NCBI GenBank assembly: GCA_049520555.1
Contig: JBEKPR010000024.1
Span: forward strand, 1,176-65,175
Length of the DNA: 64,000 nt
Direction of reading: 5' to 3'
Source: Candidatus Korobacteraceae bacterium
GTDB lineage: Bacteria; Acidobacteriota; Terriglobia; Terriglobales; Acidobacteriaceae
Shown here: piece after piece, positions 6,146 to 55,422 of the stretch
Numbering within the stretch: position 1 is the stretch's first letter
Layout: each line of letters begins with the position of its first letter
Program-made: the position numbers and the translations under genes
The notes under the pieces: generated by a model
What the model was told of the DNA's origin: nothing
The model's database searches: none
What the model saw: only the letters and a program-made list of their open reading frames with translations

Positions 6146-6401
6146 TGTCCAGTCAATGCAAAGGCTGGGCGAGGTTTTGCCGATGGTAGCAGCAGAAGGT
6201 GACGAAATGAGTTGCCCGCTGTGGTGAACGGCCCGCCCAAGAAAACTGGGCTTCAGTAGGCCACCCGCCGACACGTTGTCGTCGGGCGAAAGAGTTGCGG
6301 CTCATCACCGAGGCCGACGGGGCGTCTACCACAGTGCTGTTGCCGGAGAAACATTGAAGCGCATAGATGGTAATATCAGAAATCTGAGGAGCCAAGTCAG
6401 A

Positions 6402-20309: not shown

Positions 20310-20612
20310 ATGCCGCCGCGTCACTATAAGAAAGCTCTCAAGCTGGCGAAGGTTCGCTCGTTCGAGGTGTACTCAATCCGTCACACCTTTCTCACCCGGC
20401 TTGGGGAGAGCGGCTGTGATGTTTGGACGCTGGCGCGTGTCGCTGGGCATTCTAATATCAGCATCTCGCAGAGGTATGTTCACCCCTTCGAGGATGCCGT
20501 GCTAAATGCGCTCTCGCGTTTGAGTGGGCACAATTTTGGGCACAGTGCCGAAAACGTGAATTCTGCGAGGTCTGGGGAATTGCTGCTAAGTACCGCCAAC
20601 CGCGAGGGTTAA
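20310..20612 (+). pseudogene. C-terminal fragment of a tyrosine integrase
   Basis: YSIRHTFLTRLGESG...LARVAGHSNISISQRYVHP is the HxxR...H...Y catalytic end. The frame is closed upstream at 20277, so no N-terminal domains are present. It ends 1 nt before the tRNA-derived repeat. Confidence 0.65.
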
Positions 20613-20762: not shown

Positions 20763-21797
20763 CTACGCCCGCTTTTCTGGTGCTGTGTCCTCATCCAGAA
20801 CGGCTCTCACAATTTCCAGCCCTGGGTGCTGGTAGTGCATCGCGGTCTTCACATCCTTGTGGCCCATGATTTTCATTACGACGGCCAGGTTCCCGGTCTT
20901 CTTCAGAATCCGAGTGCCATAGTCGTGGCGCCCGCAATACAGAACTAGATCGGCAGGAAGCCCTGCCTTCTCGCGAGCGTCGCGAAACCAGTTCGCCATC
21001 GTGGTGAGATGGCCGCCCTGAGCCCGCTTGGACGGAAACACCCATCCTTCCCGCCTTGTGCCACACCGCTCCTTAAGAATATCGAAGACGCGTGTGCTCA
21101 TCGGCACGTTTCTCCTCCCCTCTTCGGTCTTGCTGTCTGGCACGAAGATGAGTTGATAGTCCCAATCCAGGTTCTCAATGCGCATCCGGTAAAGCTCTCT
21201 TTCGTTGCGCATGCCGGTATCGCGCATCAAAATGACGATGTCCCGGAAAAGTTGAAGGCTGCGCCTCCGCCAGTTGCAAGCAGCCGCGCCCGCCAACAAT
21301 TTCCTTTCTGCTTCCTGGTCGAGCCTGAGGGAACGTCCGTATTCCTTCATCAGCCTGAGCTTGGGGGCATGGCGAATTAGCTTCCACTCTTCCGCCTTGT
21401 GCAACATCCTTCGGAGTGTTCTCAGCGCGCAATTGGCGTTCGAGGACGAGCCGGGAAATCTCATCGTTTCGATTACGTCGCTCGTGATCTGATCCAATCG
21501 CATGCCAACGATGGCCGTCGTCTTCAGTAGTCGCCAACCATCCCGGTAATAGGTTTTTGTTTTGTCTTCCAGGCTGACATTATCCAGCCATTCCAGGAAG
21601 TGCCGTGAAAACTCCAGCAATACGGGAGCTTTCTTGGGTAACGGGTCTGCGTTCTCTACCGCCTGGGCGAGTTTCAGACCGGCAATCTTCGCCGCCCTGG
21701 CTGCCTTGGTTTCGTTAGTTGATCCACGGTAGCGCTGACCGCGCACTGTGAAATCAAACCAGTAAAACTTGGACTTCGATTTCTTAAACAGCTTCAC
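20763..21797 (-). CDS. int: tyrosine integrase (phage-integrase family)
   Basis: Catalytic motifs GMRNEREL (Arg), GRHDYGTR (HxxR), MGHKDVKTAMHYQH (H...Y). The preferred start is the GTG at 21797 (MKLFKKSKSKFYWFDF), preceded by GGAGGA; the track start is 21830. Confidence 0.9.
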   Translation of the reverse strand: MKLFKKSKSKFYWFDFTVRGQRYRGSTNETKAARAAKIAGLKLAQAVENADPLPKKAPVLLEFSRHFLEWLDNVSLEDKTKTYYRDGWRLLKTTAIVGMRLDQITSDVIETMRFPGSSSNANCALRTLRRMLHKAEEWKLIRHAPKLRLMKEYGRSLRLDQEAERKLLAGAAACNWRRRSLQLFRDIVILMRDTGMRNERELYRMRIENLDWDYQLIFVPDSKTEEGRRNVPMSTRVFDILKERCGTRREGWVFPSKRAQGGHLTTMANWFRDAREKAGLPADLVLYCGRHDYGTRILKKTGNLAVVMKIMGHKDVKTAMHYQHPGLEIVRAVLDEDTAPEKRA

Positions 21798-22032
21798 GAG
21801 CTTCCTCCATTGCAGCCCGCACGGAAGCAACTCGTGTGTTCTCTTGGATGTATTCCAGAAGAACGTTCACATCATAGCTAATTCGACCTTGCAGTTCTAT
21901 CCAATTTGGGCCGACCCCCTCAGCGCGCCATCGTTTCAAAGTTGCGGCGGAACGCCCGAGAATCTCGGCGGCTCTGCGCGTGTCCACGAGGTGCGGAATG
22001 GGTGGTTTCTTGATTGGTGTTGGTTGGGACAT
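21784..22032 (-). CDS. excisionase / helix-turn-helix DNA-binding protein
   Basis: Internal ATG at 22032 with a GAGGAG upstream. VDTRRAAEILGRSAATLKRWRAEGVGPNWIELQGRISY is an excisionase-type HTH. The stop overlaps the integrase start. Confidence 0.65.
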   Translation of the reverse strand: MSQPTPIKKPPIPHLVDTRRAAEILGRSAATLKRWRAEGVGPNWIELQGRISYDVNVLLEYIQENTRVASVRAAMEEAREAV

Positions 22033-22208: not shown

Positions 22209-24209
22209 TCAATGGCCGTGCGGTGCGAAACATCGCGACTCAAATGCTCCGGCGAGTTCCGACTTGTTGTTGGTGTAAATCTGCGCGTCGTAGCGGCCAC
22301 GCGAGACAGCTACGTAGGCCATGCGGCTGTTGACCAAGTGGACGCTCTCTTCGGTGTCCGCATGAACCAAAACTCGGTCGGCGGTCTGGCCCTGGCTGCT
22401 GTGGCTGGTGACGGCATAGCCGTAGTCGAGATGAGGGTGGTCTTTGAGGTGGAACTCCACCAGCCTTCCCGAATCCGTGTGTATGGCAATGTCACCGCGT
22501 TCATCGAGACGCGCAATCGTTCCGAGCTCCCGGTTGGCGACATGTAACTCTTTCGATGGGGCGGTGAGCCGCTCGATCTCCATCTCGCCAATCGTGTCGC
22601 TGATCCACTGGGCAGCCCGTGGCTCACTGGTTTTCAGGAAGATTTTAGTTGCGGGCTGGGAGAACATGGCCTCCGCCGCATGGCCGTAAATGGCCTCTAA
22701 CTGGCTACGGCCCTGAAAACACAGGACAACTGGGTTTCCGGCCTTGCGGTTTTCGGTAATGGCAGTCAGTAGTTGCGGGAGCCGGTGTAACGATGAAAGC
22801 TCATCCAGGACGAACCAAACAGGGCGCGGGCCGCGTCGACCCTGGTTCATCAACCGCAGGATCATCATGTCGAGCCACATGCTGATGAGTGGACGCAACT
22901 GCTCCCTGGCTTCCGGGATACTGGTAACGAAGACCCAGCCTTGTCGATGGCCCGACCATTCGGCCGCCGTCCAACTTTTTTTGACCGATTGCACTTTGAC
23001 TGGTGACGGCAGCAATTTGAGACTGTCGGCAACCATGCTGAGGGCACCGAACATGCCACCGCGTTGCGGTCCGGCGTTCTCATAAACCATTGCAGCCAGC
23101 GGCGTGCCTTTCAGTCGTCGTTCCAGTTCGTGTTCGTCGCTTAGCCAGCCCAGCAACTCCTCGGGTGTGGGCTTGAGGTTGAGTAGATGGGCGAAGATCT
23201 TGCGTGGACCCTGGACGAAGAATGGGTTCTCCCGGTCAGTTTCCGGGAAGAGGGACGCAGCCAAAGTCAGGGCCTCCGAAGGCCGGGTTACTTCATCGGA
23301 GGGCGACCAATAAGGCATCCGCTCGTCTAACGGATTCAGGATTACATCCCCGCGTTCCGGACAGTAGAACTGGCCGGTGTATTCGAGAGCAGGATCGTAG
23401 ACGACAGCCGTTTCTCCGCGTTTAGAAATCTGAGCTAAGACCTGTCGAATGAGTGAGGATTTACCGCTCCCGGAATCCCCCATAAAGAGGAAATGGTTGT
23501 CTTCAATCGAGCGCTGGATGTATATCCGCGTGCCGTTGCGGCGCAACAGGCGTTCCGAGAAAGCTGGTGGTTCAAGTGTTCCGAAACCGATACCGTCAGA
23601 TCGATTGCGGCGGTTGAACTGGGCTGCTGTGACCTCTTCCGGACCTCGCAGCGGTCGCCCCTGCTTGCATAGCTGCGCGTTCTGTTTGTCCTTGGAAATG
23701 GCTGCTGGCAGGCCCAAGACCAGCAAGCCCAAGCCGCACAGGAGCGGCCCGCGCGCCAAGTCCTTGAGGCTCTGCCCCCGGTACACAGCATCCCGCAGTT
23801 CGTTCTTGATGAGTTCGTTTTTCCAGGGTCTGGGCGGTGTGAGTATCAACCGCTTCCCCTGCCGCTCCGCGTCCTCGGTTAAAGCGAAAGGAATGCGGCG
23901 TCCGTCCGGCGCGGTCGTCAAACCCTGCCGCACGTCGTTCTGAGTTGGCAGGTAGCCGGCTCCGTCCCGGTGCAAGACGAGCATCAGGTCGTACTTGCTG
24001 GTGGAGACGTTGAATTTGGGCATGATGTTGGCGGACAGGTAAGTCATCAGCCAATACTGCTGCATGGGCGTACAGGCTTGGCATCGCAGCCACAACCCGC
24101 CGCATGTGACGGCCAAGGCAAGGAACAATACGCCGTACGTCCAGAGTGGCTTGTCACTCGGCCAGGACTGGATTTCCACTCGTCCCCATTTGTCCCTCAT
24201 TACTCTCAC
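22209..24209 (-). CDS. type IV coupling protein (TraD/VirD4-like) fused to the C-terminal tail of a MobF-type relaxase/helicase
   Basis: N-terminal TM segments; Walker A FMGDSGSGKSS; Walker B VWFVLDELSSL. The last ~118 aa (DYGYAVTSHSSQGQTADRVLV...AYVAVSRGR) look like the UvrD_C end of TraA/TrwC relaxases. Confidence 0.7.
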   Translation of the reverse strand: MRVMRDKWGRVEIQSWPSDKPLWTYGVLFLALAVTCGGLWLRCQACTPMQQYWLMTYLSANIMPKFNVSTSKYDLMLVLHRDGAGYLPTQNDVRQGLTTAPDGRRIPFALTEDAERQGKRLILTPPRPWKNELIKNELRDAVYRGQSLKDLARGPLLCGLGLLVLGLPAAISKDKQNAQLCKQGRPLRGPEEVTAAQFNRRNRSDGIGFGTLEPPAFSERLLRRNGTRIYIQRSIEDNHFLFMGDSGSGKSSLIRQVLAQISKRGETAVVYDPALEYTGQFYCPERGDVILNPLDERMPYWSPSDEVTRPSEALTLAASLFPETDRENPFFVQGPRKIFAHLLNLKPTPEELLGWLSDEHELERRLKGTPLAAMVYENAGPQRGGMFGALSMVADSLKLLPSPVKVQSVKKSWTAAEWSGHRQGWVFVTSIPEAREQLRPLISMWLDMMILRLMNQGRRGPRPVWFVLDELSSLHRLPQLLTAITENRKAGNPVVLCFQGRSQLEAIYGHAAEAMFSQPATKIFLKTSEPRAAQWISDTIGEMEIERLTAPSKELHVANRELGTIARLDERGDIAIHTDSGRLVEFHLKDHPHLDYGYAVTSHSSQGQTADRVLVHADTEESVHLVNSRMAYVAVSRGRYDAQIYTNNKSELAGAFESRCFAPHGH

Positions 24210-29958: not shown

Positions 29959-30348
29959 TCAGCCTAGAGAACTGGCCCCGTCGCTCCTGTTCATCACCTT
30001 CTCAATGAGTTTGAAGCATCCATACATGATGCCGTAATCCAGTACCCCCAGGGGCAAAAGCGCGTAACCGGGATAGCTCTTGTCGGTCCAAGGGATGAGC
30101 AGAACGAAAAACAGATGAAGGGCGATCAGGATCGCTGCTGTTGTCCAGAACCATACGTGTTTCCTCAAGTCCCAGCAGGCTCTAACAACTGTCATGCTCA
30201 CGCCAACAGAGATTGCTGCGGCTCTCCCCCTCCCTGGGTCTCCCAGAAGTGCAAACAGAAAGAATGGAGGTACCATGCATAGGATTACCATTAGAAGCCA
30301 TTTGCGAGTGAACACGTTGCGAGATTGATTTTCATTCAGCTCTGTCAT
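29959..30348 (-). CDS. candidate immunity protein (polytopic membrane protein)
   Basis: MTELNEN... starts at an ATG sharing one nt with the RHS stop (TGATG), implying translational coupling. It has about four hydrophobic helices (LLMVILCMVPPFFLFALL, AAAISVGVSMTVV, FWTTAAILIALHLFFVLLI, ALLPLGVLDYGIMYGCF). Confidence 0.55.
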   Translation of the reverse strand: MTELNENQSRNVFTRKWLLMVILCMVPPFFLFALLGDPGRGRAAAISVGVSMTVVRACWDLRKHVWFWTTAAILIALHLFFVLLIPWTDKSYPGYALLPLGVLDYGIMYGCFKLIEKVMNRSDGASSLG

Positions 30349-33300
30349 CAGTGCCCCGCCATGCATGATTGGTAGTCCTTATAGGTGTGCCATGCATCGT
30401 TCAAGCCCCCAGCCCCACTAACCAGTGCTCCGAGGACCGGCACTGCCTTCGCCCCAGTCAGCACAAGAGCTGACAATTGGAACCCAGCTATACTCCCGAG
30501 GGCACCAGGCGTATCTCCATTCGCGGCGCTATTGATGGTAGATGCGGCACCCACTGCCATCCCGCCTAGGGCCACGCCAAGGTCTCCACCAGGCAAGAAA
30601 CCAGCCCCAACACCAGCGAGGTCAAGCGTAAGTGCCACTCCATTTCTGCGCAAAGCGTCGGCGAGGCATTTTTGCTTCTTCTTGGAATCGTCGCAAAGGC
30701 CCAGTGGATCAATCAGGTTGATGGGATTGCTGCGGGTGTAGTCGTAGAAGTTGATCCCGCCCAGGAACTCGATCGGATCGCGGTTGATGAATCGTCCGGT
30801 TACTCCGTCCAGGGCGCGATAGGTGCCGAGATTCAGAGCACTGGCAGGATGGTACAGCAACCCTGCGAAGTGGTAATCGGTGGGCGTGTAGCCAAAGCTG
30901 CGGTCGAAGCTACCATAGGGCGCGTAATCATAGGCATCGAGCAGGACGCCTGTCGCCCCCTCGAGCACATCTCGCACCGAGCCCAACTGGTCAGGCATGT
31001 AGATCAGGGGTTCCCCGTTTGGGACGTCCAGTTCCCCCTCGGCCATATGGCGCCGCAGCACGGTGTCGCCGCCGTCCCGGGTCTGGCATAGATGGCCATT
31101 ATGGCACCAGAGATAGCGGAAGGTATTTGTGCCGCCTAGAGCGCCGGTCTCAACGTCGATGATTCTCCGCCCCAGCCCGTCATAGGAAAACTGCGACTTG
31201 GCATTGCTGCCCACGTAATCGATCTCCACCAGCCGGTTCTCCGCGTCCCACTTGTAGGTGCGGGTTCCGTCGCCACTCAGGGTGTTACCGTTGGCATCAT
31301 AGAAATAATTGCTCCCACCCCAAGTGCTGATCTCGTTCAGGGGATTGTAGGTCGCTTGCGTTTTGTTCGCGCCGATCGTGACGCTGGTCGCGTTGTCAAC
31401 CAGATCGTAACCATATGCATGGTAGTTAATTGGCGGGGCAAACGTGGCGCTGAGCAGGCGGTCGCTGAGGTCGTAGGTGTAAGTGTGAGTGTCGCCACCG
31501 AACGGATGGCCCGGTGCCGGCGACTCTGTGATCGACATTACATCATAAGGATTGTTAGCGCCTCCACCTCCCGGAATGACATAGCTGAGCGTGTAGCTGC
31601 GGGTAACACCGCTGTTGTTGATGGCGATGAGTCGGCGGTCGTTATTATTGGTGTCGTAGCTCCAGCCAGTGCTTACGTAAATTCCGGTTCGCGATCTCAA
31701 ATTTCGCAGTGTCACCTGGTTGGTCTGTCCCAGATAATAGTAGAAAAAGGTCCCGACGCCTGAATGGGAAGTGAGGCGGCTGATGGCGTCGTAGCCGAAG
31801 GTCTCATTAGCTCCAGGGATACTACGTGTGCTCATGCGCCCGAGCGCGTCATAGGCATAGCTAATTGAGTCGTTGTTGAACGGTCCAGTTTCGGAGGCTA
31901 GTTGGAGGGCGCCGTTCGTACCGATCGGAGTATAGGTGTAGCTCGTGGTACCGGTGCCGTCCGTCATGGAAGTCAGGCGCGGGAAGTATGGATCGTAGCC
32001 GAAGGTTACGTTCGGCGTTGGGTTAGCGGCATTGGTGTATGTGATCCCGGTCAGACGATCATCGAGCCCGTAGCTATAGTTTTTCATTTGACTGAGCGCG
32101 TCCGTGAGCGACTTCAGCCGACTGGTGGTTTGTTCATACGTCAGAGTTTCAGTTTCTGCATAAGCCGTGCCATAGGCATAGGTCTTCGAGATCGGACGGC
32201 CCTCAAGGTCTATCTCCCAGTGTGTTACGTTGCCGTTCGCATCTGTGATGTCTTTGAGCACTCCATTTTCATAATAGTCGTAAGTCGTGGTGCGACCGTT
32301 ATTGCCTATGGGCTCGGTCACACTGGTCACTCGCCGATCGGCGTCGTAGCCATAGGTCGTCACCCGCCCGAGCCGGTCAGTATGCTTGCGGAGCTCAAGG
32401 CTAGGTGTGCCTTGAAGAGGCCCGCTCTGAAAAGTCCAGTCGTATAGGTCGCTCGTTCCATCCGGATAGGTGATCTGCGTCACACGGTCAAGATTGTCGT
32501 AATTGTAGGTTAGCGTGTATCCCTCGGAATCCGTTCGGGTGCGCACCCGGTCGGCCGAGTCATAAGTAAGCGTGAGCACGGTCTGGTGGTTAGGGTTCTG
32601 CACCGTGGATAAGCGGCCCGTAGAGTCGTAGTTAAAAGTTGTCAGGCCAGAGTTCGGATCCGTGATAGTGGCGAGCTGTCCGGCTGCGTTATACGTATAC
32701 TGCCACGCCTTCCCGTCGGCTCCGGTATAGGTTTGCGGCTCGTGCTGGTTGTTGTAGTTGGAGAATGCTGCGATGGTCTGAAGACCCGACGATGTATTCT
32801 GCTGGACGGTCAGCAGGTCGATATTGTTGGAGGCGTAGGTAAACTGAGTTAACCGGCCGAGCGCATCAGTGATAGAGGTGGGCTTCCCACCGAAGCCGCC
32901 GTTGCCGCCGTTATACGTAGCTCTTGTCAGTTGCGTCGATCCACTGTCAAGCACGCGACCGGCAGCGCTAGGCCGGTCGAGAGATCCATTTTCAAGGGAT
33001 GACGGCTGATTTGGGTAATTGTACCAGATGCGGTTTTCGAGAGACGGCTTGATACTTTCTGGCGTCCTGCCCGTCACATTAGGGAAATTGTTCTGATCGT
33101 GCACCCAGTGCGTGGTGTGCGAGTCGTAAGGATTTTCGGTGTGAATGCTGCCGTCGGGATTCAGCGTCACTGCGCCGGGGTAGTTAAAAGCGTGCTTGTC
33201 ATAGTAGTAGGTGTTGCGATACTCCAGATATGCATTGGTGAGATTCATGCCCGATGGCAGCGTGTTTGAAGGATCGGAGTCGTGGATGAAATTCGGGTAT

Positions 33301-35390
33301 TGATAAAAATATAGAAACTCGGTGTAGCCGAGTGGATCCTTCATCGTGAGCGCCCGCGTGCTCCCGTCCCCCGTTGGGTCGCCGGTAGGCAGCGCGTCAG
33401 AGAAAACCGAAACGCCATAAGGAGTGGTCAAGTTGGTTATGAAGTTCGGCTCAGTCACTGAATATGTAAAGCTTGAGGTGATTCCAATCGGATCAGTAAT
33501 GGAGGCGAGACGCTGGATGGAGTCATACGTGAGCTGTGAATAGCGTCCGAACGCATCGGTGATTCTCGTAATCAGCAGCGGATAATTTGCAAGACCATAG
33601 GTAAAAGTCGTGCTGCGCCCCATGGCATCAGTGACTGAAGTAAGGCGGAAACGGCTATCATAGTTCAGGGTGGTAATGTTGCCTGCGGGATCGATAACCT
33701 CAGTCAGGAACATGATACGGGGAAACGTCTGCGCACCGTTAGACAGGGCGTATACCTCTGTGCTGCCATCCGGCAGATTGCGCTGGTAAGAGGTCGCCGG
33801 ACCGGTCGGCGGAATGCGCACTAGCTGGGAGTCGTCGTATGTCTCGGCAGTAAAAGTGCCGTTGCCAGAGTTATAGCTTCCTGCAGGATAGACAATGCCC
33901 CCACCTCCAGAAGCGTAGCGGCTGACCGAGGCCCCTGGACTGTTGGGATCGTCTTGGATGTAGGCAAGCCAGCTGAACGTCCATTTTGGACTCACATTCG
34001 AGAAGCTGAAATTCGCAGGTTGTTGGTCTTCGCGCTGATTGTAGAATAGTGTTACCAGGGCAGAAGGACCCTTTTGGGGTCGGTAGCCCACTGGCGTATC
34101 AGTCAGGTTGAGGCTCACCGACATCATAATGGCATCGGCGACGGTCATCTGGGGAGCGCAACTATTCTGCGCGGGAGCGACTTGCGGAGCGTCCCCGTTG
34201 CAGTCGGCATGCTTGTCGTTCGTCGTCGTCGTGCCCGGAAGGTCTTGATTGGTGACACCCATTCCATATACCGCACGAGCTTCATCCGAATCGGCGTTCA
34301 CCGTGCGCCAGCCACTCTTTGGAGCGGCATCAAACACGGAAGCGGGAACCAGAAAGTATCCGCTGCTCTCGGCGTCAATCGCCTTTGCGGTAAGCAGGGC
34401 ACCTGCGTTGCCTCCAAAGGTTGGGTCTAGCACCTGGTACAGCCCTTGCTGTTTACCTGTTATGGCCGCATAGTGATGGGCGTTCCAGTTAACCACCGAC
34501 GGCACGGGGACAGGCTGGCCTGGATCACGGTGAATCAGCTTATAGTTGAGCTGCGTCTCATCGGCGAGCGCCGCCAGTTGCGCAAGCGAAAATCCATGCG
34601 GACCGGAACGCGCGTCGTCTGCGATCTTTATCTCACTGGGGCTGGCTTTTAGGGTGGTCAACAGGTTCTCGAGCGCTTTGGGCCCGCAGAGATAAGCGAC
34701 GCTAGGGTTATGTTGAAACTCCCACAGCCCTTCGTGCGCGCCCTGTATCATTTCTGTTGCCGAGCCGCTAATCGGACGCTGTCCAATGTCCGCGAACAAG
34801 GCCTCAAGTTCCTTCTCGTGTCCCAACCGTGCGTGCATCCGGGCGAGTTCACCGACGGCGCGATCCACCATGATTCTGGCCTGCGGCGTTGTGGCATTCC
34901 GTCCAAGCACCCAAGCTTGCTGCCACGATGTAAGCGCCCGGGTGAAATAACCCGCATAATAGTAGCCGACGCCGAGATCGGTAAGTATGGCCGCATTCCA
35001 GGGCGAGCCTGGATGCATAGACGCATAGGCTACAAGCGGTTTGGCATAATCCGCGAAGTCGGCTTGAGGATCCGAATTCACAGGTGCCTTTTTGTAGGCG
35101 GCAATTGCGGCATCAAGATCGGCATCCTCTTCGTGTGTCGTTGGGCCCGTCGCAACAAGTGGCTCCTCCAATCCGGGGACAAATCGCATCGGCGGCGGCG
35201 GCGGTAACTGCACCTGCGGCGGAGCTTTGGGTATGACCGTCGGAATCGGGTGCGAAGATGCGGACAACTTAGGCGAGAGTGAGGCCTGTTGGCGCTGATT
35301 ATCAGATGCAAGACTGACACTTGAAGCTGACATGGTCAAAAGCAGCGTCAGGCAAAACACAAAGCGCTGTGGAACGTGCCGATGGCGCAT
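30348..35390 (-). CDS. secreted RHS/YD-repeat toxin with N-terminal C39-like peptidase domain and glycine-zipper C-terminal domain
   Basis: ATG at 35390 follows AGGAG. Signal peptide: MRHRHVPQRFVFCLTLLLTMSASSVSLA. There are dozens of YD repeats (YxYDxxGRL), an RHS core end (FINRDPIEFLGGINFYDYTRSNPINLIDPLGL) and a 115-aa tail. Confidence 0.9.
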   Translation of the reverse strand: MRHRHVPQRFVFCLTLLLTMSASSVSLASDNQRQQASLSPKLSASSHPIPTVIPKAPPQVQLPPPPPMRFVPGLEEPLVATGPTTHEEDADLDAAIAAYKKAPVNSDPQADFADYAKPLVAYASMHPGSPWNAAILTDLGVGYYYAGYFTRALTSWQQAWVLGRNATTPQARIMVDRAVGELARMHARLGHEKELEALFADIGQRPISGSATEMIQGAHEGLWEFQHNPSVAYLCGPKALENLLTTLKASPSEIKIADDARSGPHGFSLAQLAALADETQLNYKLIHRDPGQPVPVPSVVNWNAHHYAAITGKQQGLYQVLDPTFGGNAGALLTAKAIDAESSGYFLVPASVFDAAPKSGWRTVNADSDEARAVYGMGVTNQDLPGTTTTNDKHADCNGDAPQVAPAQNSCAPQMTVADAIMMSVSLNLTDTPVGYRPQKGPSALVTLFYNQREDQQPANFSFSNVSPKWTFSWLAYIQDDPNSPGASVSRYASGGGGIVYPAGSYNSGNGTFTAETYDDSQLVRIPPTGPATSYQRNLPDGSTEVYALSNGAQTFPRIMFLTEVIDPAGNITTLNYDSRFRLTSVTDAMGRSTTFTYGLANYPLLITRITDAFGRYSQLTYDSIQRLASITDPIGITSSFTYSVTEPNFITNLTTPYGVSVFSDALPTGDPTGDGSTRALTMKDPLGYTEFLYFYQYPNFIHDSDPSNTLPSGMNLTNAYLEYRNTYYYDKHAFNYPGAVTLNPDGSIHTENPYDSHTTHWVHDQNNFPNVTGRTPESIKPSLENRIWYNYPNQPSSLENGSLDRPSAAGRVLDSGSTQLTRATYNGGNGGFGGKPTSITDALGRLTQFTYASNNIDLLTVQQNTSSGLQTIAAFSNYNNQHEPQTYTGADGKAWQYTYNAAGQLATITDPNSGLTTFNYDSTGRLSTVQNPNHQTVLTLTYDSADRVRTRTDSEGYTLTYNYDNLDRVTQITYPDGTSDLYDWTFQSGPLQGTPSLELRKHTDRLGRVTTYGYDADRRVTSVTEPIGNNGRTTTYDYYENGVLKDITDANGNVTHWEIDLEGRPISKTYAYGTAYAETETLTYEQTTSRLKSLTDALSQMKNYSYGLDDRLTGITYTNAANPTPNVTFGYDPYFPRLTSMTDGTGTTSYTYTPIGTNGALQLASETGPFNNDSISYAYDALGRMSTRSIPGANETFGYDAISRLTSHSGVGTFFYYYLGQTNQVTLRNLRSRTGIYVSTGWSYDTNNNDRRLIAINNSGVTRSYTLSYVIPGGGGANNPYDVMSITESPAPGHPFGGDTHTYTYDLSDRLLSATFAPPINYHAYGYDLVDNATSVTIGANKTQATYNPLNEISTWGGSNYFYDANGNTLSGDGTRTYKWDAENRLVEIDYVGSNAKSQFSYDGLGRRIIDVETGALGGTNTFRYLWCHNGHLCQTRDGGDTVLRRHMAEGELDVPNGEPLIYMPDQLGSVRDVLEGATGVLLDAYDYAPYGSFDRSFGYTPTDYHFAGLLYHPASALNLGTYRALDGVTGRFINRDPIEFLGGINFYDYTRSNPINLIDPLGLCDDSKKKQKCLADALRRNGVALTLDLAGVGAGFLPGGDLGVALGGMAVGAASTINSAANGDTPGALGSIAGFQLSALVLTGAKAVPVLGALVSGAGGLNDAWHTYKDYQSCMAGH

Positions 35391-35797
35391 CACGAAGCTC
35401 CTGATGAACAAAATTGCCAATTTGCACAGATAAGAGCAGAATTCGGATCGGAAGAGATGATAAGAAAGTGGTGCAGAGTTTCTTCGATATCCTAGAGGCT
35501 GTCAAGACCACTTAAGTGTGTTTACGAGAAAGTGACCTTACCCCTAGATTCATCCGCCTGAGCATACGAGATTCCTGGGTTCCTAGTGTCCAATTTGTCT
35601 TTCGCTTCGCCTTCCTAGCTTGTTTTTCCTTCACTACCGAGATGGACCTGGGTCAAGGCCGAGCGTAGCGATCCAGCAGATCTTGCTCTTTACCCAGCAG
35701 CGTCGCCTGAAACTCGACTTGCGATGGTGCTGGTCGCCTATAAGCTGCGAGTGGCCTCAGGCCGGGCACCTGTCGTAATGACAGGTGCACTCATCCT

Positions 35798-36784
35798 TGT
35801 GTGGGGAATCCGGTCGAAGGTGAACGCGATTCCGGTCTGAAGCCGAACACGATTCCGTTGTGATTCCGAACAGCATTCCGGTCCGAAGGTGAACGCCGAT
35901 TCCGGTGGGAAGGCGAACAGTTCTTGTCGCCTAGCGGAATGGCGTTCGGCTTGGAGCGGAATGTTTTCCACAGACGAACAGCAGGAGGTGAAGCGACGCT
36001 GGACAATCACCCGGCATTGAAACTCCATCACTGAAGGAGGACAGGGTGCCGGCCAGGAGAAAGTCCATGCGAAAAGTCAAAGAGGTCCTGCGGTTGAGGT
36101 TCGAGTTGGGGCTGGGACAGCGCCAGATCGCGCGCAGTTGCGGAATGGGGCTGGGCACGGTCCACGAGTATCTGGAACGGGCGGTCCGGGATCGGTTGGC
36201 CGTTGCCGGAAGGCTTGGGCGAAGAAGAACTGGAAGCCAAGCTGTTTGGGAACCACCCCGTGCAGGCCGGAGCGGTGCGACAGTGGTCACAACCGGATTG
36301 GAACACCATCCATCAGCAACTGCGGCAACATCGTCATCTGACCCTGCAGTTGGTGTGGGAAGAATACCGGCAAGCGCATCCCGAAGGGTATCGCTACAGT
36401 TGGTTTTGCGAGCGCTATCAGCACTGGCGGCGGCACCTGGATGTGGTCTTGCGCCAGGAACACAAGGCCGGCGAAAAGATGTTCGTGGACTGGGCGGGGG
36501 CAACGATTCCCGTCTATGACAGTACGACCGGGCAAGCCTGGCCGGCATCGTTGTTTGTTTCCGTGCTGGGTGCCAGTTCCTACACCTACGCAGAAGCGAC
36601 TCGCGATCAGCAACTGGAAGCCTGGATTCAGGCGCACATCCACGCCCTGGAGTTTTTCGGAGGGGTGCCGATTCTGGTAGTGCCCGATAACACCAAGACG
36701 GCCGTCACCCGCGCCTGCCGTTACGATCCGGACCTGAATCCCACCTATCAAGAGTTCGCGGTGCATTACGGGAGCCTAACATAG
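35798..36784 (+). mobile_element. IS21-family remnant (left end plus damaged istA; no istB, no right end)
   Basis: Five ~23-bp direct repeats of (G)ATTCCGGTnnGAAGnnGAACnc lie at 35806-35920, with an inverted copy at 35934-35963. This resembles the multiple terminal repeats of IS21 ends. The istA-like ORF follows. Confidence 0.65.
36046..36784 (+). pseudogene. istA: IS21-family IstA transposase, frameshifted and 3'-truncated
   Basis: MRKVKEVLRLRFELGLGQRQIARSCGMGLGTVHEYLERA is followed by a frame change near 36185. The second frame reads GIGWPLPEGLGEEELEAKLF...FVDWAGATIPV...VPDNTKTAV and stops after AVHYGS (~245 of an expected ~500 aa). Confidence 0.75.
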
Positions 36785-50771: not shown

Positions 50772-51884
50772 ATGCTGACTTCCAAGACCATCGCCGTAGC
50801 CATGTCCGGAGGAGTGGACTCCTCCGCCGTCGCTGCATTGCTGTGCGAGCAGGGCCACACGGTCGTCGGGCTCACGCTGCAGTTGTGGAACCAGCGCCGC
50901 CTGGCCGGTCACGAGGGCATGCCGGAGTCAGTGCAGGGACGCTGCTGTTCCATCGATGACGTTTACGATGCCCGCCGCGTGGCCGAGACGCTCGGCATTC
51001 CGTATTACGTCGTCAATCAGGAGCAGCGCTTTGAGGAAGACGTGGTGCGCCCGTTCGTCTCGGAGTATCTCTCCGGGCGCACGCCAATTCCGTGCAGCCT
51101 GTGCAATAACCATCTGAAGTTCGATCAGCTACTGATCACCGCGCGCCAGATTGGGGCGGACCTGCTGGCCACCGGACATTACGCGCGCAACGAGTTCGAC
51201 GAGCGCACCGGACGCTGGGTGTTGAAGCGCCCTGCCGATCGCGCCAAGGACCAGACCTATTTCCTCTTCGGCCTGACGCAGGAGCAGTTGAGCCGCACCC
51301 TGTTTCCGCTCGGCGAGCTGCGCAAGCCCGAGGTGCGCGAGGAAGCCAGGCGCGCGGGACTTCGGCTGTTCGAAAAGCCCGACTCGCAGGAGATCTGCTT
51401 CATTCCGGGCGGCGACTATAAGAAGTTCCTCGACGCCTATCTGGCGGAGCAGGGCGAAGAGTTTCCCGACACCGCGGGCGAACTGGTCACCACCAGCGGC
51501 GAGGTGGTCGGCTCACACAGTGGCATTCACAACTTCACCGTGGGGCAGCGCAAGGGGCTGGGCGTGGCCACGGGCTCGCCGCTGTACGTGTTGGAGATTC
51601 GCGGAGACAAGCACCAAGTCGTGGTGGGCGGTGGCGACGAGTTGTTCTCGCGGACGTTGCGCGCCAAGGCAGTGAACTGGATCGCGATTGACGATCTGCA
51701 CGGGCCCATGCGCGTGCAGGCCAAGATTCGGCATCGCCATGAAGCTGCGGACGCGGCCATCGAGAAGAGCGGCCACGACGAGGTGCTGGCGACGTTCGAC
51801 CAACCGCAGCGCGCCATCACTCCCGGTCAGGCAGTGGTGTTCTATGACGGCGACGTAGTTGTGGGCGGCGGCTGGATCACGTAG
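50772..51884 (+). CDS. mnmA: tRNA 2-thiouridine(34) synthase MnmA
   Basis: ATG at 50772. PP-loop [11 protein letters not shown], plus CCSIDD, CNNHLKF and ATGHYAR. Confidence 0.92.
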
Positions 51885-51904: not shown

Positions 51905-51962
51905 CTGTTACAATCGAGGTGCAGGCTGTCTGCCCGCGCTTCTCACATTCCATGAAGTGCCC
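51905..51962 (+). repeat. copy A of the nrdR promoter/start duplication
   Basis: CTGTTACAATCGAGGTGCAGGCTGTCTGCCCGC...CCATGAAGTGCCC matches 52999-53056 at about 50 of 58 positions by hand alignment. It includes TACAAT and ATG-AAG-TG(C/T)-CC (MKCP). Confidence 0.75.
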
Positions 51963-52095
51963 GAGCACGAAGACGATCTCGTCGCCCGCCTGGCACAGGG
52001 CAAGCATAGCAACGAGCTCCGCAGCCATGCCGCTGGAAGTCTCAACTGTGGCGTTGGATGGCGATGCTAGAATGCAATTTAGGAGGAGCAAGTCA

Positions 52096-52485
52096 GTGCG
52101 GGTGTTTCTCAGTTACGCGCAAGCAGACCAGGCTTTCGCGAAAGCTCTTTCAGAAGAGCTTACGCGGCGAGGTCTCGATGTTTGGAGTGACGAGCGAGAG
52201 ATTCTGCCTGGCGACAATGTCTGGTCCAGCATCGGAGAAGCTTTGAAGAAGTCCAAAGCACTGGTCGTGCTGATCTCGCCTGAGTCCATGCGGTCCAAGT
52301 TCGTGCGTAGCGAGATTCAGTATGCGTTAGGGGACCTCGGCTATGACCAACGAATATTCCCGGTCATGGTGCAAGAAACCTCTTCCGTACCCTGGATTCT
52401 CAGCAAATTTAAGATCCTCAATGCGAACGCCGGCGCAGCCAAGGTAAGCGACGCCATAGCGAACTCCCTAAAGCAGGTCGCGTGA
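52096..52485 (+). CDS. TIR-domain protein 1
   Basis: GTG at 52096, 9 nt after AGGAGG. (M)RVFLSYAQADQAFAKALSEEL...DVWSDEREILPGDNVW...ALVVLISPESMRSKFVRSEIQYAL is a canonical bacterial TIR_2 layout of ~129 aa. Confidence 0.75.
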   Translation: MRVFLSYAQADQAFAKALSEELTRRGLDVWSDEREILPGDNVWSSIGEALKKSKALVVLISPESMRSKFVRSEIQYALGDLGYDQRIFPVMVQETSSVPWILSKFKILNANAGAAKVSDAIANSLKQVA

Positions 52486-52495
52486 GCTTCGCATA

Positions 52496-52963
52496 ATGCT
52501 GAAACGACAGCCCGTAAAGAGAAAAATCTTTCTCTCGCATTCCAGCAAAGATCGTGCGTTCGTCTTGCGACTTGTTAAAATCCTCGAGAGCAATCGGATT
52601 TCATACTGGTACAGCGCGACGCATATCAAGGGCGCAAAGCAATGGCATGATGAAATTGGACGGGCATTGGGGGAATGTAATTGGTTCCTCGTAGTCTTGA
52701 CGCCTGATGCGGTTCGGTCTCAATGGGTCAAGCGCGAGCTGTTGTTTGCATTGGACGAAGACCGGTACGACCGAAGAATCATTCCGCTGCTCTATAAGTC
52801 GTGTAAGTACTCGCGTCTCTCTTGGACTCTGCCTGCGTTTGAGCTGGTGGATTTCAGGGCGAGATTTGATTCCGGTTGTAAGCAGCTTCTGCGCGTCTGG
52901 GGCCTCCAATACAAGCCGAAAGCTATCGCTCGGCGTTCGACTCAAAAGAAGAAACCTCTATAG
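52496..52963 (+). CDS. TIR-domain protein 2
   Basis: KIFLSHSSKDRAFVLRLVKILE...ISYWYSATHIKGAKQW...FLVVLTPDAVRSQWVKRELLFAL. It is 155 aa and starts 10 nt after TIR-1. Confidence 0.8.
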   Translation: MLKRQPVKRKIFLSHSSKDRAFVLRLVKILESNRISYWYSATHIKGAKQWHDEIGRALGECNWFLVVLTPDAVRSQWVKRELLFALDEDRYDRRIIPLLYKSCKYSRLSWTLPAFELVDFRARFDSGCKQLLRVWGLQYKPKAIARRSTQKKKPL

Positions 52964-52998
52964 GTACGCCTGCTTCACCGTAGCAAGCCTCAGATCCC

Positions 52999-53056
52999 CT
53001 GTTACAATCGAGGTGTAGGCTGTCTGCCCGCACTTTTTCTAATCCATGAAGTGTCC
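52999..53056 (+). repeat. copy B of the duplication (the functional nrdR promoter/start)
   Basis: See copy A. The ATG at 53046 is the nrdR start, and TACAAT at 53003-53008 is a -10-like box. Confidence 0.75.
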
Positions 53057-53534
53057 ATTCTGCGGCTTTGAAAACGACAAAGTAGTGGATTCGCGCGAAA
53101 GCAAGGAAGGCGAATCCATCCGCCGCCGCCGCGAATGCCTGAAGTGCGAGAAGCGCTTCACCACCTATGAGCGGATCGACGAGATCCCCTACATGGTGGT
53201 CAAGAAAGACGGGCGGCGCGAAAAGTTTGAACGCCAGAAAGTTCTGAATGGACTGCTGCGGGCCTGCGAGAAGCGGCCTGTCTCCATGAGTAAATTGGAG
53301 CAGATTGTCAATGATGCCGAGGGCTTCGTGGTGGACTCGCCCGATCGCGAGCGCAAAACCAGCGAGGTCGGCGAGCTGATCATGAACCGCCTGAAGCGTC
53401 TTGATAAGGTCGCCTATGTGCGCTTCGCCTCGGTTTATCTCGATTTCAAAGACGTGCGCGAGTTCATGGCGGAGTTGAAGGAACTGCTCGACACCAAGGA
53501 CAACACGTCGGCCAAAGCCAAGTCCGGAGACTGA
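53046..53534 (+). CDS. nrdR: transcriptional repressor NrdR
   Basis: MKCPFCGFENDKVVDSRESKEGESIRRRRECLKCEKRFTTYE, a zinc ribbon plus ATP-cone. Confidence 0.95.
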   Translation: MKCPFCGFENDKVVDSRESKEGESIRRRRECLKCEKRFTTYERIDEIPYMVVKKDGRREKFERQKVLNGLLRACEKRPVSMSKLEQIVNDAEGFVVDSPDRERKTSEVGELIMNRLKRLDKVAYVRFASVYLDFKDVREFMAELKELLDTKDNTSAKAKSGD

Positions 53535-53558: not shown

Positions 53559-54602
53559 ATGTCATATAAAGTCACGTTAATACCCGGCGATGGCATCGGT
53601 CCCGAGGTGGTGAATGCGAGCGTCCGGATCCTGGAAGCTACCGGCGTCAAGTTCGAGTGGGAAAGCTTCGCCGCCGGCGCCGAAGCCTTCGAAAAGTACC
53701 AGGAGTACATCCCCAAAGAACTCACAGAGTCCATCGAACGCACCCATGTTGGCCTGAAAGGCCCGGTGACAACGCCCATCGGCGGCGGCTTTTCCAGCAT
53801 CAACGTGGCGTTGCGCAAGCAATTTGAGCTGTTCGCCAACTTCCGGCCTATTCGCAATCTGCCGGCGGTACCAACTCGCTATCCCGGCGTCGATCTGGTC
53901 ATTGTTCGCGAAAACACCGAGGGGCTCTACTCGGGCATCGAGCACGAAGTCGTGCCGGGCGTGGTGGAGAGCCTGAAGATCATCACCGAGAAGGCTTCCA
54001 CGCGCATCTCCCGGTTTGCCTTCGAGTACGCGCGGCGCATGCATCGCAAGAAGATCCACGCCATCCACAAGGCCAACATCATGAAGCTGTCGGACGGCCT
54101 GTTCATCCGCTGTTCGCGCAACATCTCGAAGGAGTATCCCGAGATCACCTACGGCGAACACATCGTGGACAACACCTGCATGCAACTGGTCATGAATCCC
54201 TACCAGTACGATATGTTGCTGCTGGAAAATCTTTACGGCGACATCATCTCCGATCTGTGCGCAGCGTTCGTCGGCGGACTCGGCCTGGTTCCGGGCGCCA
54301 ACTTCGGGCACGAGTGCGCCATCTTCGAAGCGGTGCATGGCTCTGCGCCCGACATCGCCGGCAAAGACATCGCCAATCCGACGGCCGTGCTGCGGTCGGG
54401 CATTCTAATGCTCCGCCACCTGGGTGAGGAGAACGCCGCCAACCACATCCGCCTGGCGTTGGAGAAGGTGTACACCGAGAAGAAGCACCTTACGCGCGAC
54501 GTGGGCGGCACCGCCGGAACCAGCGAGTTCGCCGACGCCATGATTGAGGCGCTGCACGCCATTCCGCCACCCAAAGCGGAATTGCAGGAAGTGCAGAGGT
54601 AG
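53559..54602 (+). CDS. isocitrate/isopropylmalate dehydrogenase family enzyme (NAD-IDH-like)
   Basis: VTLIPGDGIGPEV, LVIVRENTEGLYSG, NLYGDIISD and AIFEAVHGSAPDIAG are present. Confidence 0.85.
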   Translation: MSYKVTLIPGDGIGPEVVNASVRILEATGVKFEWESFAAGAEAFEKYQEYIPKELTESIERTHVGLKGPVTTPIGGGFSSINVALRKQFELFANFRPIRNLPAVPTRYPGVDLVIVRENTEGLYSGIEHEVVPGVVESLKIITEKASTRISRFAFEYARRMHRKKIHAIHKANIMKLSDGLFIRCSRNISKEYPEITYGEHIVDNTCMQLVMNPYQYDMLLLENLYGDIISDLCAAFVGGLGLVPGANFGHECAIFEAVHGSAPDIAGKDIANPTAVLRSGILMLRHLGEENAANHIRLALEKVYTEKKHLTRDVGGTAGTSEFADAMIEALHAIPPPKAELQEVQR

Positions 54603-54621
54603 GGATTCGGAACCTCAATGC

Positions 54622-55422
54622 ATGGCGAGATTCTACAAATTCCGGGGGATCAGGGACCCAGCTAGCCTAGTGACGGATTTTTCTCTCGACGCTCTATTCA
54701 AGTCCTACGCAGTATTTTCCGGGAGGGCGAATTTCAACGATCCATTCGATAGCAAGATTGATCTCGTACGCCCCACCGCTCAAGAAATCCTCAGCTTGCT
54801 TCGGCATCCCAATGTAATCGCACCCAAGCGAAACTTATACAACCGCTGGCTCTCAAAGGGACAATTCAGTAGGTTGGGACTCGAGTATCTGCGAAGGTTC
54901 GAAAGGAATCTTGCTGATTTGATTGACACCTTTCCAATATATTCCCTTAGCAGCCACAATCGCTGCATCTTGCTCTGGGCCCACTACGCCTCGTGTCATA
55001 CCGGCTTCTGCATTGAATTCGAATATGGTGGAGAACAGCCCGCCGAGGTGCGTTATCAGAGCCAAATAGACTCCATACGGCTGTTTGATCTTCTTAAATA
55101 CAACAATCTAGGGATCGACACCGACAATAAGCTCGCGGAACAGATTAGGAACGCACTACTAGTCAAACTTGAATGCTGGTCTTATGAAGGTGAATATCGA
55201 TGGATCGCGGCGAAGGACCATGTCACGAAGCAGCAACAGTACAGGATGGAGAAAAAATATAATCCCGAGCAGGTTAAGGCGATAATCTTCGGCTGCCGAA
55301 TGCCATCTCCCGTGAAGAGCTATATTCTTGCGCGGCTTCCCTTCAGTACGAAATTCCAGCAAGCCCTTGAGATGAGGGATAGTATTGAAATCGTAGATTT
55401 CGATCAGAACCGCCATCTGTAG
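54622..55422 (+). CDS. DUF2971-like protein
   Basis: ATG at 54622. MARFYKFRG...LDALFKSYAVFSGRANFNDPFDS...IYSLSSHNRCILLWAHYASCHTGFCIEFEY is the DUF2971 pattern as I remember it. The gene is visibly AT-richer than its flanks. Confidence 0.65.
   Translation: MARFYKFRGIRDPASLVTDFSLDALFKSYAVFSGRANFNDPFDSKIDLVRPTAQEILSLLRHPNVIAPKRNLYNRWLSKGQFSRLGLEYLRRFERNLADLIDTFPIYSLSSHNRCILLWAHYASCHTGFCIEFEYGGEQPAEVRYQSQIDSIRLFDLLKYNNLGIDTDNKLAEQIRNALLVKLECWSYEGEYRWIAAKDHVTKQQQYRMEKKYNPEQVKAIIFGCRMPSPVKSYILARLPFSTKFQQALEMRDSIEIVDFDQNRHL

What the first reader, a model, noticed from the sequence alone, without database searches (positions are those of the whole stretch)
51905..53056. TIR-TIR two-gene cassette inserted between mnmA and nrdR, flanked by a duplicated nrdR promoter/start
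A ~58-nt segment containing a TACAAT box, the nrdR leader and the first four codons (ATG AAG TGY CC = MKCP) occurs twice in direct orientation. The copies are 51905-51962 and 52999-53056, matching at about 50 of 58 positions by hand alignment. Only the second copy continues into nrdR. Between the copies lie two adjacent small genes that each encode nothing but a TIR domain, of 129 and 155 aa. Both keep the Glu-containing block (KFVRSEIQYAL and QWVKRELLFAL) at the position of the catalytic Glu of NADase-type TIRs. The second is clearly AT-richer than its surroundings. No SIR2, Macro, SLOG, TM or other effector gene accompanies them, so this is not a canonical Thoeris or other TIR system I can name. 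A stand-alone TIR pair captured into a housekeeping operon and placed behind a copy of the nrdR promoter is a candidate minimal NAD-signalling or NAD-depleting defence module. It also has an unusual insertion signature.
Basis: partly seen in the sequence, partly recalled or inferred. Interest (0 to 1): 0.75.

Follow-up and report, generated by a model that had tools for sequence, protein, structure and literature searches.

The report
Mobile two-TIR cassette at nrdR promoter
A roughly 1.1-kb accessory cassette encoding two small TIR-domain proteins with no partner effector sits between mnmA and nrdR, has duplicated the nrdR promoter and gene start, and has recently spread between related soil Acidobacteria; it is a plausible but untested minimal NAD-consuming phage-defence module.

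Summary
A 58-nt direct repeat (50/58 identical) brackets two adjacent TIR-only genes of 129 and 155 aa.

The repeat is the conserved nrdR extended -10 box, leader and first four codons. Copy 2 is the working one and copy 1 is a relic.

Relatives settle the insertion question. The closest relative by MnmA (95%) has mnmA-leader-nrdR with no TIR genes. Two other species carry the same filled junction.

The inserted unit also contains a 96-nt internal fragment of a cystathionine-gamma-synthase-type (CGS) gene on the minus strand. That gene is the intact left neighbour of the TIR pair in another lineage (CGS-TIR-TIR-nrdR).

The cassette is about 97% identical between three species whose flanking genes are only 80-88% identical. 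The edges of the high-identity block lie inside the two leader copies. I infer recent spread by recombination in the leader.

The pair is a conserved unit in 60-65 unique loci. The genes lie about 10 nt apart, the pair usually has its own promoter, no conserved third gene accompanies it, and the catalytic Glu is kept in both proteins.

Target-derived repeats bracket the pair in 10 of 55 loci, against 1 of 200 control positions.

The function is inferred, not shown.

The parts
50772..51884 (+). mnmA (tRNA 2-thiouridylase), the resident left flank
   Evidence: Pfam tRNA_Me_trans, E 6e-73. In L178 the same gene lies 64 nt upstream of nrdR.
51905..51963 (+). Copy 1: a relic of the nrdR promoter (TGTTACAAT at 51906-51914), leader and first four codons (ATGAAGTGCCCG)
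   Evidence: Its left flank matches the empty-site leader of L178. It has decayed in L180 (TACAGT, a 25-nt deletion, ATG changed to AAG).
51963..52058 (-). Pseudogene fragment covering codons 81-112 of a Cys/Met-metabolism PLP enzyme (CGS/MetB-type)
   Evidence: tblastn gives 22/32 identical to the L023 CGS (E 2e-6 against all loci, 2e-12 alone). It is 81% identical at nucleotide level to L097 5531-5613 inside the intact PF01053 gene.
52065..52073 (+). The cassette's own extended -10 box (TGCTAGAAT); the AGGAGG ribosome-binding site is at 52081-52086
   Evidence: Read from the sequence. TGnTAnAAT occurs upstream of TIR1 in 34 of 58 unique loci.
52096..52485 (+). TIR1, a 129-aa TIR-only protein (LPGDN loop, Glu73)
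   Evidence: Pfam TIR_2, E 3e-25. AF2 pLDDT 91.6; best Foldseek match AbTir 7uxu, TM 0.83. Glu73 is kept in 58 of 60 pairs.
52496..52963 (+). TIR2, a 155-aa TIR-only protein (FLSHSxxD, WHDEIG, W77xxxE81, basic C-terminal tail)
   Evidence: Pfam TIR_2, E 2.5e-23. The profile aligns W77/E81 with the WtnyEL motif of AbTir. W77, E81 and SH are kept in 60 of 60 pairs. AF2 pLDDT 71.7.
52999..53057 (+). Copy 2: the working nrdR promoter (TGTTACAAT at 53000-53008), leader and start
   Evidence: Its upstream flank TCAGATCCCC matches the L097-type context.
53046..53534 (+). nrdR, the resident right flank
   Evidence: Pfam Zn_ribbon_NrdR plus ATP-cone. nrdR-icd synteny holds in nearly all of 80 species.

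Best explanation
What it is (shown). This is a roughly 1.09-kb accessory cassette integrated at the nrdR promoter/leader of an mnmA-nrdR-icd locus in a Terriglobia (Korobacteraceae-like) genome.

Anatomy (shown). From left to right:
- the relic nrdR leader with four codons;
- a 96-nt relic of a CGS gene;
- the cassette's own promoter and ribosome-binding site;
- TIR1, a 10-nt gap, then TIR2;
- the working nrdR leader and nrdR.

Origin (inferred). The unit arose in a lineage where the TIR pair lay between a CGS gene and nrdR. An illegitimate joint formed between nrdR codon 4 and CGS codon 112. The unit then entered mnmA-nrdR loci by recombination inside the 58-nt leader, either by Campbell-type integration or by recombination with homology on one side only. 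That process necessarily leaves two leader copies. Recombination between the two copies can remove the unit again.

Function (inferred). The two TIR proteins act together as a self-contained NAD+-consuming abortive-infection module. TIR2 resembles AbTir and has invariant FxSHxxxD and WxxxE motifs, so it is the likely NADase or cyclase. TIR1 co-evolves with it and is less conserved, so it is the likely partner that senses infection or nucleates the active TIR assembly.
For: Origin:
- The empty site is in L178/L179.
- The same filled junction is in L001 and L180.
- The donor-type context is in L096/L097, and its own empty version is in L023.
- The CGS relic starts exactly at the end of copy 1.
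- The cassette is 96.8-97.0% identical among the window, L001 and L180. By contrast iscS is 80-87%, mnmA 83-88% and nrdR-icd 85-88% identical.
- The high-identity block runs from about 51940 to about 52995, so it starts inside copy 1 and ends inside copy 2. It includes the non-functional CGS relic, so recent spread explains it better than selection.

The pair as a unit:
- TIR1 lies directly upstream of TIR2 in about 77 of 80 metagenome loci. There are 65 unique pairs with a modal gap of 10 nt.
- The identities of the two proteins to the window pair correlate at r = 0.88.
- A natural TIR1-like/TIR2-like fusion protein exists, P0355.
- No conserved third gene was found.

Enzyme features:
- Both models have the TIR fold.
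- The Glu and WxxxE motifs are conserved.

Precedents:
- In staphylococcal Thoeris, ThsB1 recruits and activates the catalytic ThsB2 (PMC12578639).
Against: - No activity, phage or NAD data exist for this pair.
- Its neighbours are mostly housekeeping genes rather than defence islands, which is weaker context than for most defence systems.
- PADLOC and NCBIfam give only generic TIR-domain hits, far below the family cut-offs.
- The hairpin part of the leader is lineage-specific in both copies. A single clean crossover does not predict this, so gene conversion or heteroduplex repair must be added.
- The true donor was not found. L097 is only 79% identical across the cassette.
- The TIR2 model has only moderate confidence.
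Confidence: 0.55

Rival explanations
1. The pair is a toxin-antitoxin-like addiction module. TIR2 would be an NADase toxin held in check by heteromeric binding of TIR1, and the pair would persist and spread as a selfish two-gene unit.
For: - It consists of two small, tightly coupled genes with their own promoter.
- It is scattered singly among housekeeping genes.
- It is patchy among close relatives and has spread recently.
- TIR2 is frameshifted while TIR1 remains intact in L012/L019.
Against: - TIR1 has no DNA-binding antitoxin domain, and it keeps its own catalytic Glu in 58 of 60 pairs.
- In L141-L146 both genes decay together.
- I found no described example of a TIR protein acting as antitoxin to another TIR.
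Confidence: 0.15
2. The pair is a set of orphan Thoeris-type sensors. They would make a cADPR-type or related signal for an effector encoded elsewhere in the genome.
For: - Both proteins hit the ThsB models of PADLOC and the Pfam ThsB_TIR model at domain level.
- Thoeris loci can hold several TIR genes. Type III Thoeris couples multiple TIR proteins to a SLOG effector, and staphylococcal Thoeris has ThsB1 and ThsB2.
Against: - No SIR2, SLOG, Macro or other effector family appeared among the families listed for the window's proteins.
- None appeared among the most frequent neighbour families for about 60 unique loci.
- A cassette that moves alone between species would have to find a matching effector each time.
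- Only 64 kb of this genome was visible.
Confidence: 0.1
3. This rival concerns origin only. The duplication would be a long target-site duplication made by a duplication-generating insertion process, such as template switching or fill-in at staggered breaks, acting on a discrete cassette of about 0.95 kb. It would not be a by-product of recombination at the leader.
For: - Target-derived direct repeats of 33-172 nt bracket the pair in 10 of 55 unique loci, against 1 of 200 control positions.
- An exact shared word of at least 14 nt occurs in 11 of 50 loci, against 1 of 186 controls.
- In L137/L120 and L174/L145 the cassette homology stops at or next to the repeats.
Against: - In the window, the right side from TIR2 to nrdR is continuous with the L097-type context, so there is no right-hand junction.
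- The left side carries a relic of the earlier neighbour gene.
- The edges of the high-identity block lie inside the repeats, not outside them.
Confidence: 0.15
4. The pair is a housekeeping or regulatory partner of NrdR, linking nucleotide or NAD metabolism to ribonucleotide reductase control.
For: - nrdR is the single most frequent downstream neighbour, in 13-14 of 59 loci.
- This linkage holds with four different left flanks.
- No terminator lies between TIR2 and nrdR.
Against: - The pair is absent from the closest relative and from most of the 80 species surveyed.
- About three quarters of the pairs are not near nrdR.
- The pair has lower G+C than its surroundings and has moved recently.
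- Pseudogenised copies exist.
Confidence: 0.03

Closest known systems
Staphylococcal type I Thoeris, ThsA-ThsB1-ThsB2 (PMC12578639)
   Same: It has two adjacent TIR proteins that work as a pair. One binds the phage trigger and recruits and activates the other, and only one catalytic Glu is needed.
   Different: That system needs the SIR2-SLOG effector ThsA, and its ThsB1 is a longer protein in which the putative catalytic Glu lies at residue 318. Here no effector was found and both proteins are bare TIR domains of 129 and 155 aa.
[quoted passage not shown]
   Same: They are short proteins in which only a TIR domain is recognised, and they protect by cell death or growth arrest.
   Different: Those are single genes. 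Here two distinct TIR families co-evolve and always occur together. Sequence relatedness to the E. coli proteins was not tested.
AbTir / BtpA (TcpB) / PdTIR-type bacterial TIR NADases
   Same: These are the best sequence and fold matches. The FxSHxxxD and WxxxE motifs of TIR2 align with AbTir.
   Different: Identity is only 20-26%. Activity and product are unknown for this pair.
Thoeris types I-XI and the 29 predicted TIR-plus-effector configurations (bioRxiv 10.64898/2025.12.03.692087)
   Same: They use a signalling TIR protein of the same superfamily.
   Different: Every type there is defined by a non-TIR effector, and standalone TIRs were discarded by design. A TIR-TIR-only operon is not among the types described in the main text.
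Gain and loss of small gene islets by homologous or homology-facilitated illegitimate recombination between conserved flanking genes (my own knowledge of transformation studies; not retrieved here)
   Same: No recombinase gene is present, a conserved flank serves as anchor, one joint is illegitimate, and alleles are patchily filled or empty.
   Different: Here the recombining homology is a 58-nt promoter/leader that ends up duplicated, and similar flanking duplications recur at unrelated targets.

Membership tests
Thoeris (any type) | A TIR-domain ThsB protein | tested here: met
   Pfam TIR_2 and ThsB_TIR hits, and PADLOC ThsB models at domain level.
Thoeris (any type) | An adjacent non-TIR effector (SIR2-SLOG, Macro, SLOG, DUF2270 and others) in the same operon | tested here: not met
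   The flanks are mnmA and nrdR. No such family appeared among those listed for the window. No conserved third gene was found around about 60 unique pairs.
Thoeris (any type) | The TIR protein makes a signalling nucleotide on infection | not testable with these tools
   This needs biochemistry.
NADase-type TIR domains (AbTir/SARM1-like) | The TIR flavodoxin-like fold | tested here: met
   AF2 pLDDT 91.6 and 71.7. Foldseek probability 1.0 to AbTir, SPARTA TIR, BtpA and SARM1.
NADase-type TIR domains (AbTir/SARM1-like) | A catalytic Glu at the position aligned with the AbTir WxxxE motif | tested here: met
   TIR2 W77 and E81 are kept in 60 of 60 pairs and align with the WtnyEL motif of AbTir. 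TIR1 E73 is kept in 58 of 60 pairs.
NADase-type TIR domains (AbTir/SARM1-like) | NAD+ cleavage or cyclisation activity | not testable with these tools
   No assay was possible.
Two-TIR sensor/enzyme pair (ThsB1/ThsB2-like) | Two co-conserved adjacent TIR genes | tested here: met
   TIR1 is upstream of TIR2 in about 77 of 80 loci. The modal gap is 10 nt and identities correlate at r = 0.88.
Two-TIR sensor/enzyme pair (ThsB1/ThsB2-like) | A sensor subunit with an extra non-TIR region | tested here: not met
   TIR1 is 129 aa and is covered end to end by the TIR fold.
Type II toxin-antitoxin module | Two small co-transcribed genes with their own promoter | tested here: met
Type II toxin-antitoxin module | An antitoxin with a DNA-binding or unfolded neutralising domain, and toxicity that the partner relieves | tested here: inconclusive
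   TIR1 has no HTH or RHH domain. Toxicity is not testable here.
Transposon, IS element or integrase-borne island | A transposase or integrase gene, terminal inverted repeats, and a fixed-length target duplication | tested here: not met
   No such gene lies between the repeats, and the inverted repeats found are weak (70-82% complementary) and do not mark the cassette ends. Flanking repeats range from 33 to 172 nt across loci.

The most novel reading that the evidence does not exclude
The TIR1-TIR2 pair would be a complete immune or addiction module with no separate effector, in which two different bare TIR domains form the sensor and the NADase. It would travel between soil Acidobacteria as a recombinase-free unit of about 1 kb. 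The unit would integrate and excise through a duplicated stretch of the target: here the nrdR promoter and first codons, elsewhere other gene starts or ends. This would be a general mode of movement that generates duplications and has not been described for defence genes.
Probability: 0.3. Interest if true: 0.8.

Novelty: new variant of a known kind. Interest (0 to 1): 0.62.

Why it matters
If the pair works alone, it would be one of the smallest multi-component TIR systems. It would offer a simple case for asking how two bare TIR domains divide sensing and catalysis. That question also bears on paired plant TIR receptors and on Thoeris ThsB1/ThsB2.

The cassette also gives a dated, sequence-level example of how a defence-type gene pair moves between species without any recombinase gene. 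It uses a conserved housekeeping promoter as the recombination site and leaves a diagnostic duplication.

The enrichment of such duplications around this family (10 of 55 loci against 1 of 200 controls) makes that mechanism testable.

Tried and rejected
- Phage or plasmid origin. TIR2 has no relatives in IMG/VR viral contigs or GenBank phages, and its best plasmid match is 41% identical.
- A known named system. PADLOC and NCBIfam give only sub-threshold domain hits.
- TIR1 translated from the duplicated nrdR start codon. The copy-1 ATG (51952) is in frame with TIR1 in the window. In L001 it is out of frame (145 nt upstream), and in L180 the ATG is lost. I reject this reading.
- A terminator insulating the pair from nrdR. 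None was found on the plus strand.
- A structured RNA in the nrdR leader. There is only a 4-bp consensus hairpin with weak covariation. I did not pursue it.
- Conserved cassette end motifs. Beyond the promoter nothing is general. One subfamily has a short CGCTAGCCTCTT word at both ends.
- An mnmA-nrdR junction among the 80 representative genomes. None was seen at first. The empty site turned up only through MnmA homologues.
- Placing the right-hand crossover inside nrdR-icd. Identity profiles to L178 and L097 do not resolve it.

Full report
**Observation**

The region holds mnmA (50772-51884), a 58-nt segment at 51905-51962, two small ORFs, a second copy of the segment at 52999-53056, and then nrdR (53046-53534) and icd. 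The repeat tool reports the two copies as 86% identical and 1094 nt apart, and finds no comparable repeat nearby.

Both ORFs are TIR_2 domains and nothing else. TIR1 runs 52096-52485 from a GTG start behind AGGAGG. TIR2 runs 52496-52963. G+C falls to 0.47-0.55 across them, against 0.60-0.67 in mnmA.

**What the repeat is**

I fetched the nrdR locus from 80 species-level genomes of Terriglobales. In almost all of them nrdR is preceded by CCTG(T/C)TACAAT, a short leader, and ATGAARTGYCC. Copy 2 is therefore the normal nrdR promoter (an extended -10 box), the 5' UTR and the first codons. Copy 1 is a second, truncated copy that ends after codon 4.

**What lies between the copies**

Immediately after copy 1, the minus strand of 51963-52058 encodes 32 residues that are 69% identical to residues 81-112 of a 396-aa Cys/Met-metabolism PLP enzyme. 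In L023 that enzyme lies divergently upstream of nrdR.

In L096/L097 the TIR1 protein is 85% identical to the window's. There the intact gene (PF01053) is the left neighbour of TIR1-TIR2-nrdR-icd.

At nucleotide level, window 51964-52046 matches L097 5531-5613 (81%), and window 52063-53532 matches L097 5970-7433 (79%). The 356 nt between those two L097 segments are missing from the window.

The unit between the repeats is thus a relic of an earlier genomic context plus the TIR operon. It is not a bare two-gene insertion.

**Filled and empty sites**

- In most Terriglobales the order is LPG_synthase_TM - nrdR - icd.
- The TIR pair sits directly upstream of the nrdR leader in several lineages, with four different left neighbours:
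  - LPG synthase (L011, L012/L019, L022);
  - a 364-aa protein (L024);
  - CGS (L096/L097);
  - mnmA (the window, L001, L180).
- For each left neighbour there is a close relative with the same flanks and no TIR pair: L021/L025, L016/L020, L023 and L178/L179.
- L178/L179 has the MnmA closest to the window's (95%). It reads DUF2911 - citrate synthase - iscS - mnmA - 64 nt - nrdR - icd.

**How the cassette got there**

- The left flank of copy 1 (GTTCTCA|CTGTTACAAT) is the L178 type. The left flank of copy 2 (TCAGATCCCC|TGTTACAAT) is the L097 type.
- The window, L001 and L180 share the same joint between nrdR codon 4 and CGS codon 112.
- Their cassettes are 96.8-97.0% identical. Their iscS genes are 80-87%, mnmA 83-88% and nrdR-icd 85-88% identical.
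- A sliding comparison puts the high-identity block at about 51940 to 52995. It starts inside copy 1, after the small hairpin, and ends inside copy 2, just after the -10 box.
- The block includes the non-functional CGS relic. Selection on the TIR genes therefore cannot explain the similarity, and the block must have spread recently between species.

From these points I infer that the roughly 1.09-kb unit enters and leaves by recombination within the leader, which acts as its attachment site. No recombinase gene is present. Two routes are possible: Campbell-type integration of a circle, or recombination of a linear fragment with homology on one side only. These data do not separate them.

The hairpin part of the leader is lineage-specific in both copies. 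This calls for gene conversion or heteroduplex repair as an extra step.

**Is the duplicated promoter used?**

- The pair has its own TGCTAGAAT box 23 nt upstream of the start codon, and a similar box is present in 34 of 58 unique loci.
- In L180, copy 1 has lost its -10 box, 25 nt of leader and the ATG.
- In L001, the copy-1 ATG is out of frame with TIR1.

Copy 1 therefore looks like a by-product of the insertion. It may still add transcription in this strain, because no terminator follows it.

**The pair as a family**

- A scan of JGI metagenomes with the TIR2 profile returned 80 loci. TIR1 lies directly upstream in about 77 of them.
- There are 65 unique pairs, with a modal gap of 10 nt between the two genes.
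- The identities of the two proteins to the window pair correlate at r = 0.88.
- nrdR is the most frequent downstream gene, in 13-14 of 59 loci. The other neighbours are diverse, mostly housekeeping genes such as SDR, SLT, bactofilin, Maf and DAHP synthase. No SIR2, SLOG or Macro domain is among the recurrent families.
- The families listed for the window itself show no Thoeris-type effector.
- TIR2 is the better conserved protein, with FLSHSxxD, WHDEIG, W77 and E81 kept in 60 of 60 pairs. TIR1 keeps LPGDN and has E73 in 58 of 60 pairs.
- Both models fold as TIR domains closest to AbTir, SPARTA TIR and BtpA. The profile alignment places W77/E81 of TIR2 on the WxxxE motif of AbTir.
- A 288-aa protein, P0355, joins a TIR1-like half to a TIR2-like half. 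This suggests the two act together physically.
- Pseudogenised copies exist: a TIR2 frameshift in L012, and decay of both genes in L141-L146. That fits a dispensable accessory role.

**A general insertion signature**

Direct repeats derived from the target bracket the pair at other, unrelated sites:
- 172 nt covering a promoter and four codons of the downstream gene in L131;
- 117 nt in L110 and 94 nt in L137, both starting at an ATG;
- the last 27 codons and the stop of an upstream SDR gene in L158/L162 and in L177.

Repeats of at least 30 nt occur in 10 of 55 unique loci, against 1 of 200 shifted control positions. An exact shared word of at least 14 nt occurs in 11 of 50 loci, against 1 of 186 controls. 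I could not settle the mechanism behind this.

**Comparison with known systems**

- The closest functional analogue is staphylococcal Thoeris, where ThsB1 binds the capsid protein and then recruits and activates the catalytic ThsB2. That system needs the effector ThsA (PMC12578639).
- Short TIR-only single proteins defend E. coli on their own (PMC11350192).
- The broadest survey of TIR systems defines every type by a non-TIR effector, and it discarded standalone TIRs.
- I found no paper linking bacterial TIR genes with nrdR.

**Verdict**

The insertion and the duplication are real and now largely explained. The pair is a conserved, mobile, two-TIR module with no partner effector, and its defence role is plausible but untested.

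Noticed in passing
window 54544-55422 (+), probable start 54619: A DUF2971 gene matching PADLOC candidate PDC-S31 (E 2e-37) lies directly after icd and has low G+C (0.46-0.50). The same slot holds a PIN gene plus a small gene in L178, a HEAT_2 gene in L001 and a CarboxypepD_reg gene in L180. nrdR-icd therefore has a variable slot on each side.
   Followed up: partly
window 6276-8021: This is a type II restriction-modification pair: an N6/N4 DNA methylase (6276-7268, +) and a SmaI-family endonuclease (7257-8021, -).
   Followed up: no
window about 16000-37000: This looks like the remnant of an integrative or conjugative element. It has two tyrosine-integrase hits (20310-20612 and 20763-21830), a TrwB-type coupling protein (22209-24209), a 1690-aa RHS-repeat protein (30348-35420) and an rve integrase fragment (36203-36784).
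   Followed up: no
L131 59-229 / 1334-1505; L110 3316-3432 / 4531-4647; L137 3405-3498 / 4567-4660; L158 3307-3390 / 4547-4630; L177 2197-2277 / 3271-3350: Target-derived direct repeats of 81-172 nt bracket TIR1-TIR2 at unrelated genomic sites. They are enriched at 10 of 55 loci against 1 of 200 controls. The mechanism is unresolved.
   Followed up: partly
L173 1-2925: In a more distant lineage the TIR pair sits between iscS and mnmA (iscS-TIR1-TIR2-mnmA). It has thus entered the same housekeeping operon at another point.
   Followed up: no
P0355 (288 aa) and P0346-P0348 (1773-2208 aa): P0355 is a natural fusion of a TIR1-like and a TIR2-like domain. Many very long proteins carry three to seven TIR2-like domains, some with WD40-type repeats.
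   Followed up: partly
L097 2448-3440 (-): A CAP12-PCTIR_TIR/GAF protein lies 2.5 kb from the TIR pair in the donor-type locus, giving a second TIR-related gene nearby.
   Followed up: no
window 53000-53045 and the nrdR leaders of about 80 loci: An extended -10 box, TG(T/C)TACAAT, is almost invariant upstream of nrdR across Terriglobales. A small leader hairpin follows it and shows only weak covariation.
   Followed up: partly
L036, L042, L046, L049, L059, L067, L033, L088 (between LPG synthase and nrdR): Other genomes carry inserts of about 0.5-2.7 kb in the same gap upstream of nrdR. Going by ORF sequence alone (no family scan was run), the cargo looks unrelated and varied: a putative secreted enzyme, a putative transcription regulator, membrane proteins and a putative methyltransferase. 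The nrdR upstream region is a general hot spot for gene flux.
   Followed up: partly
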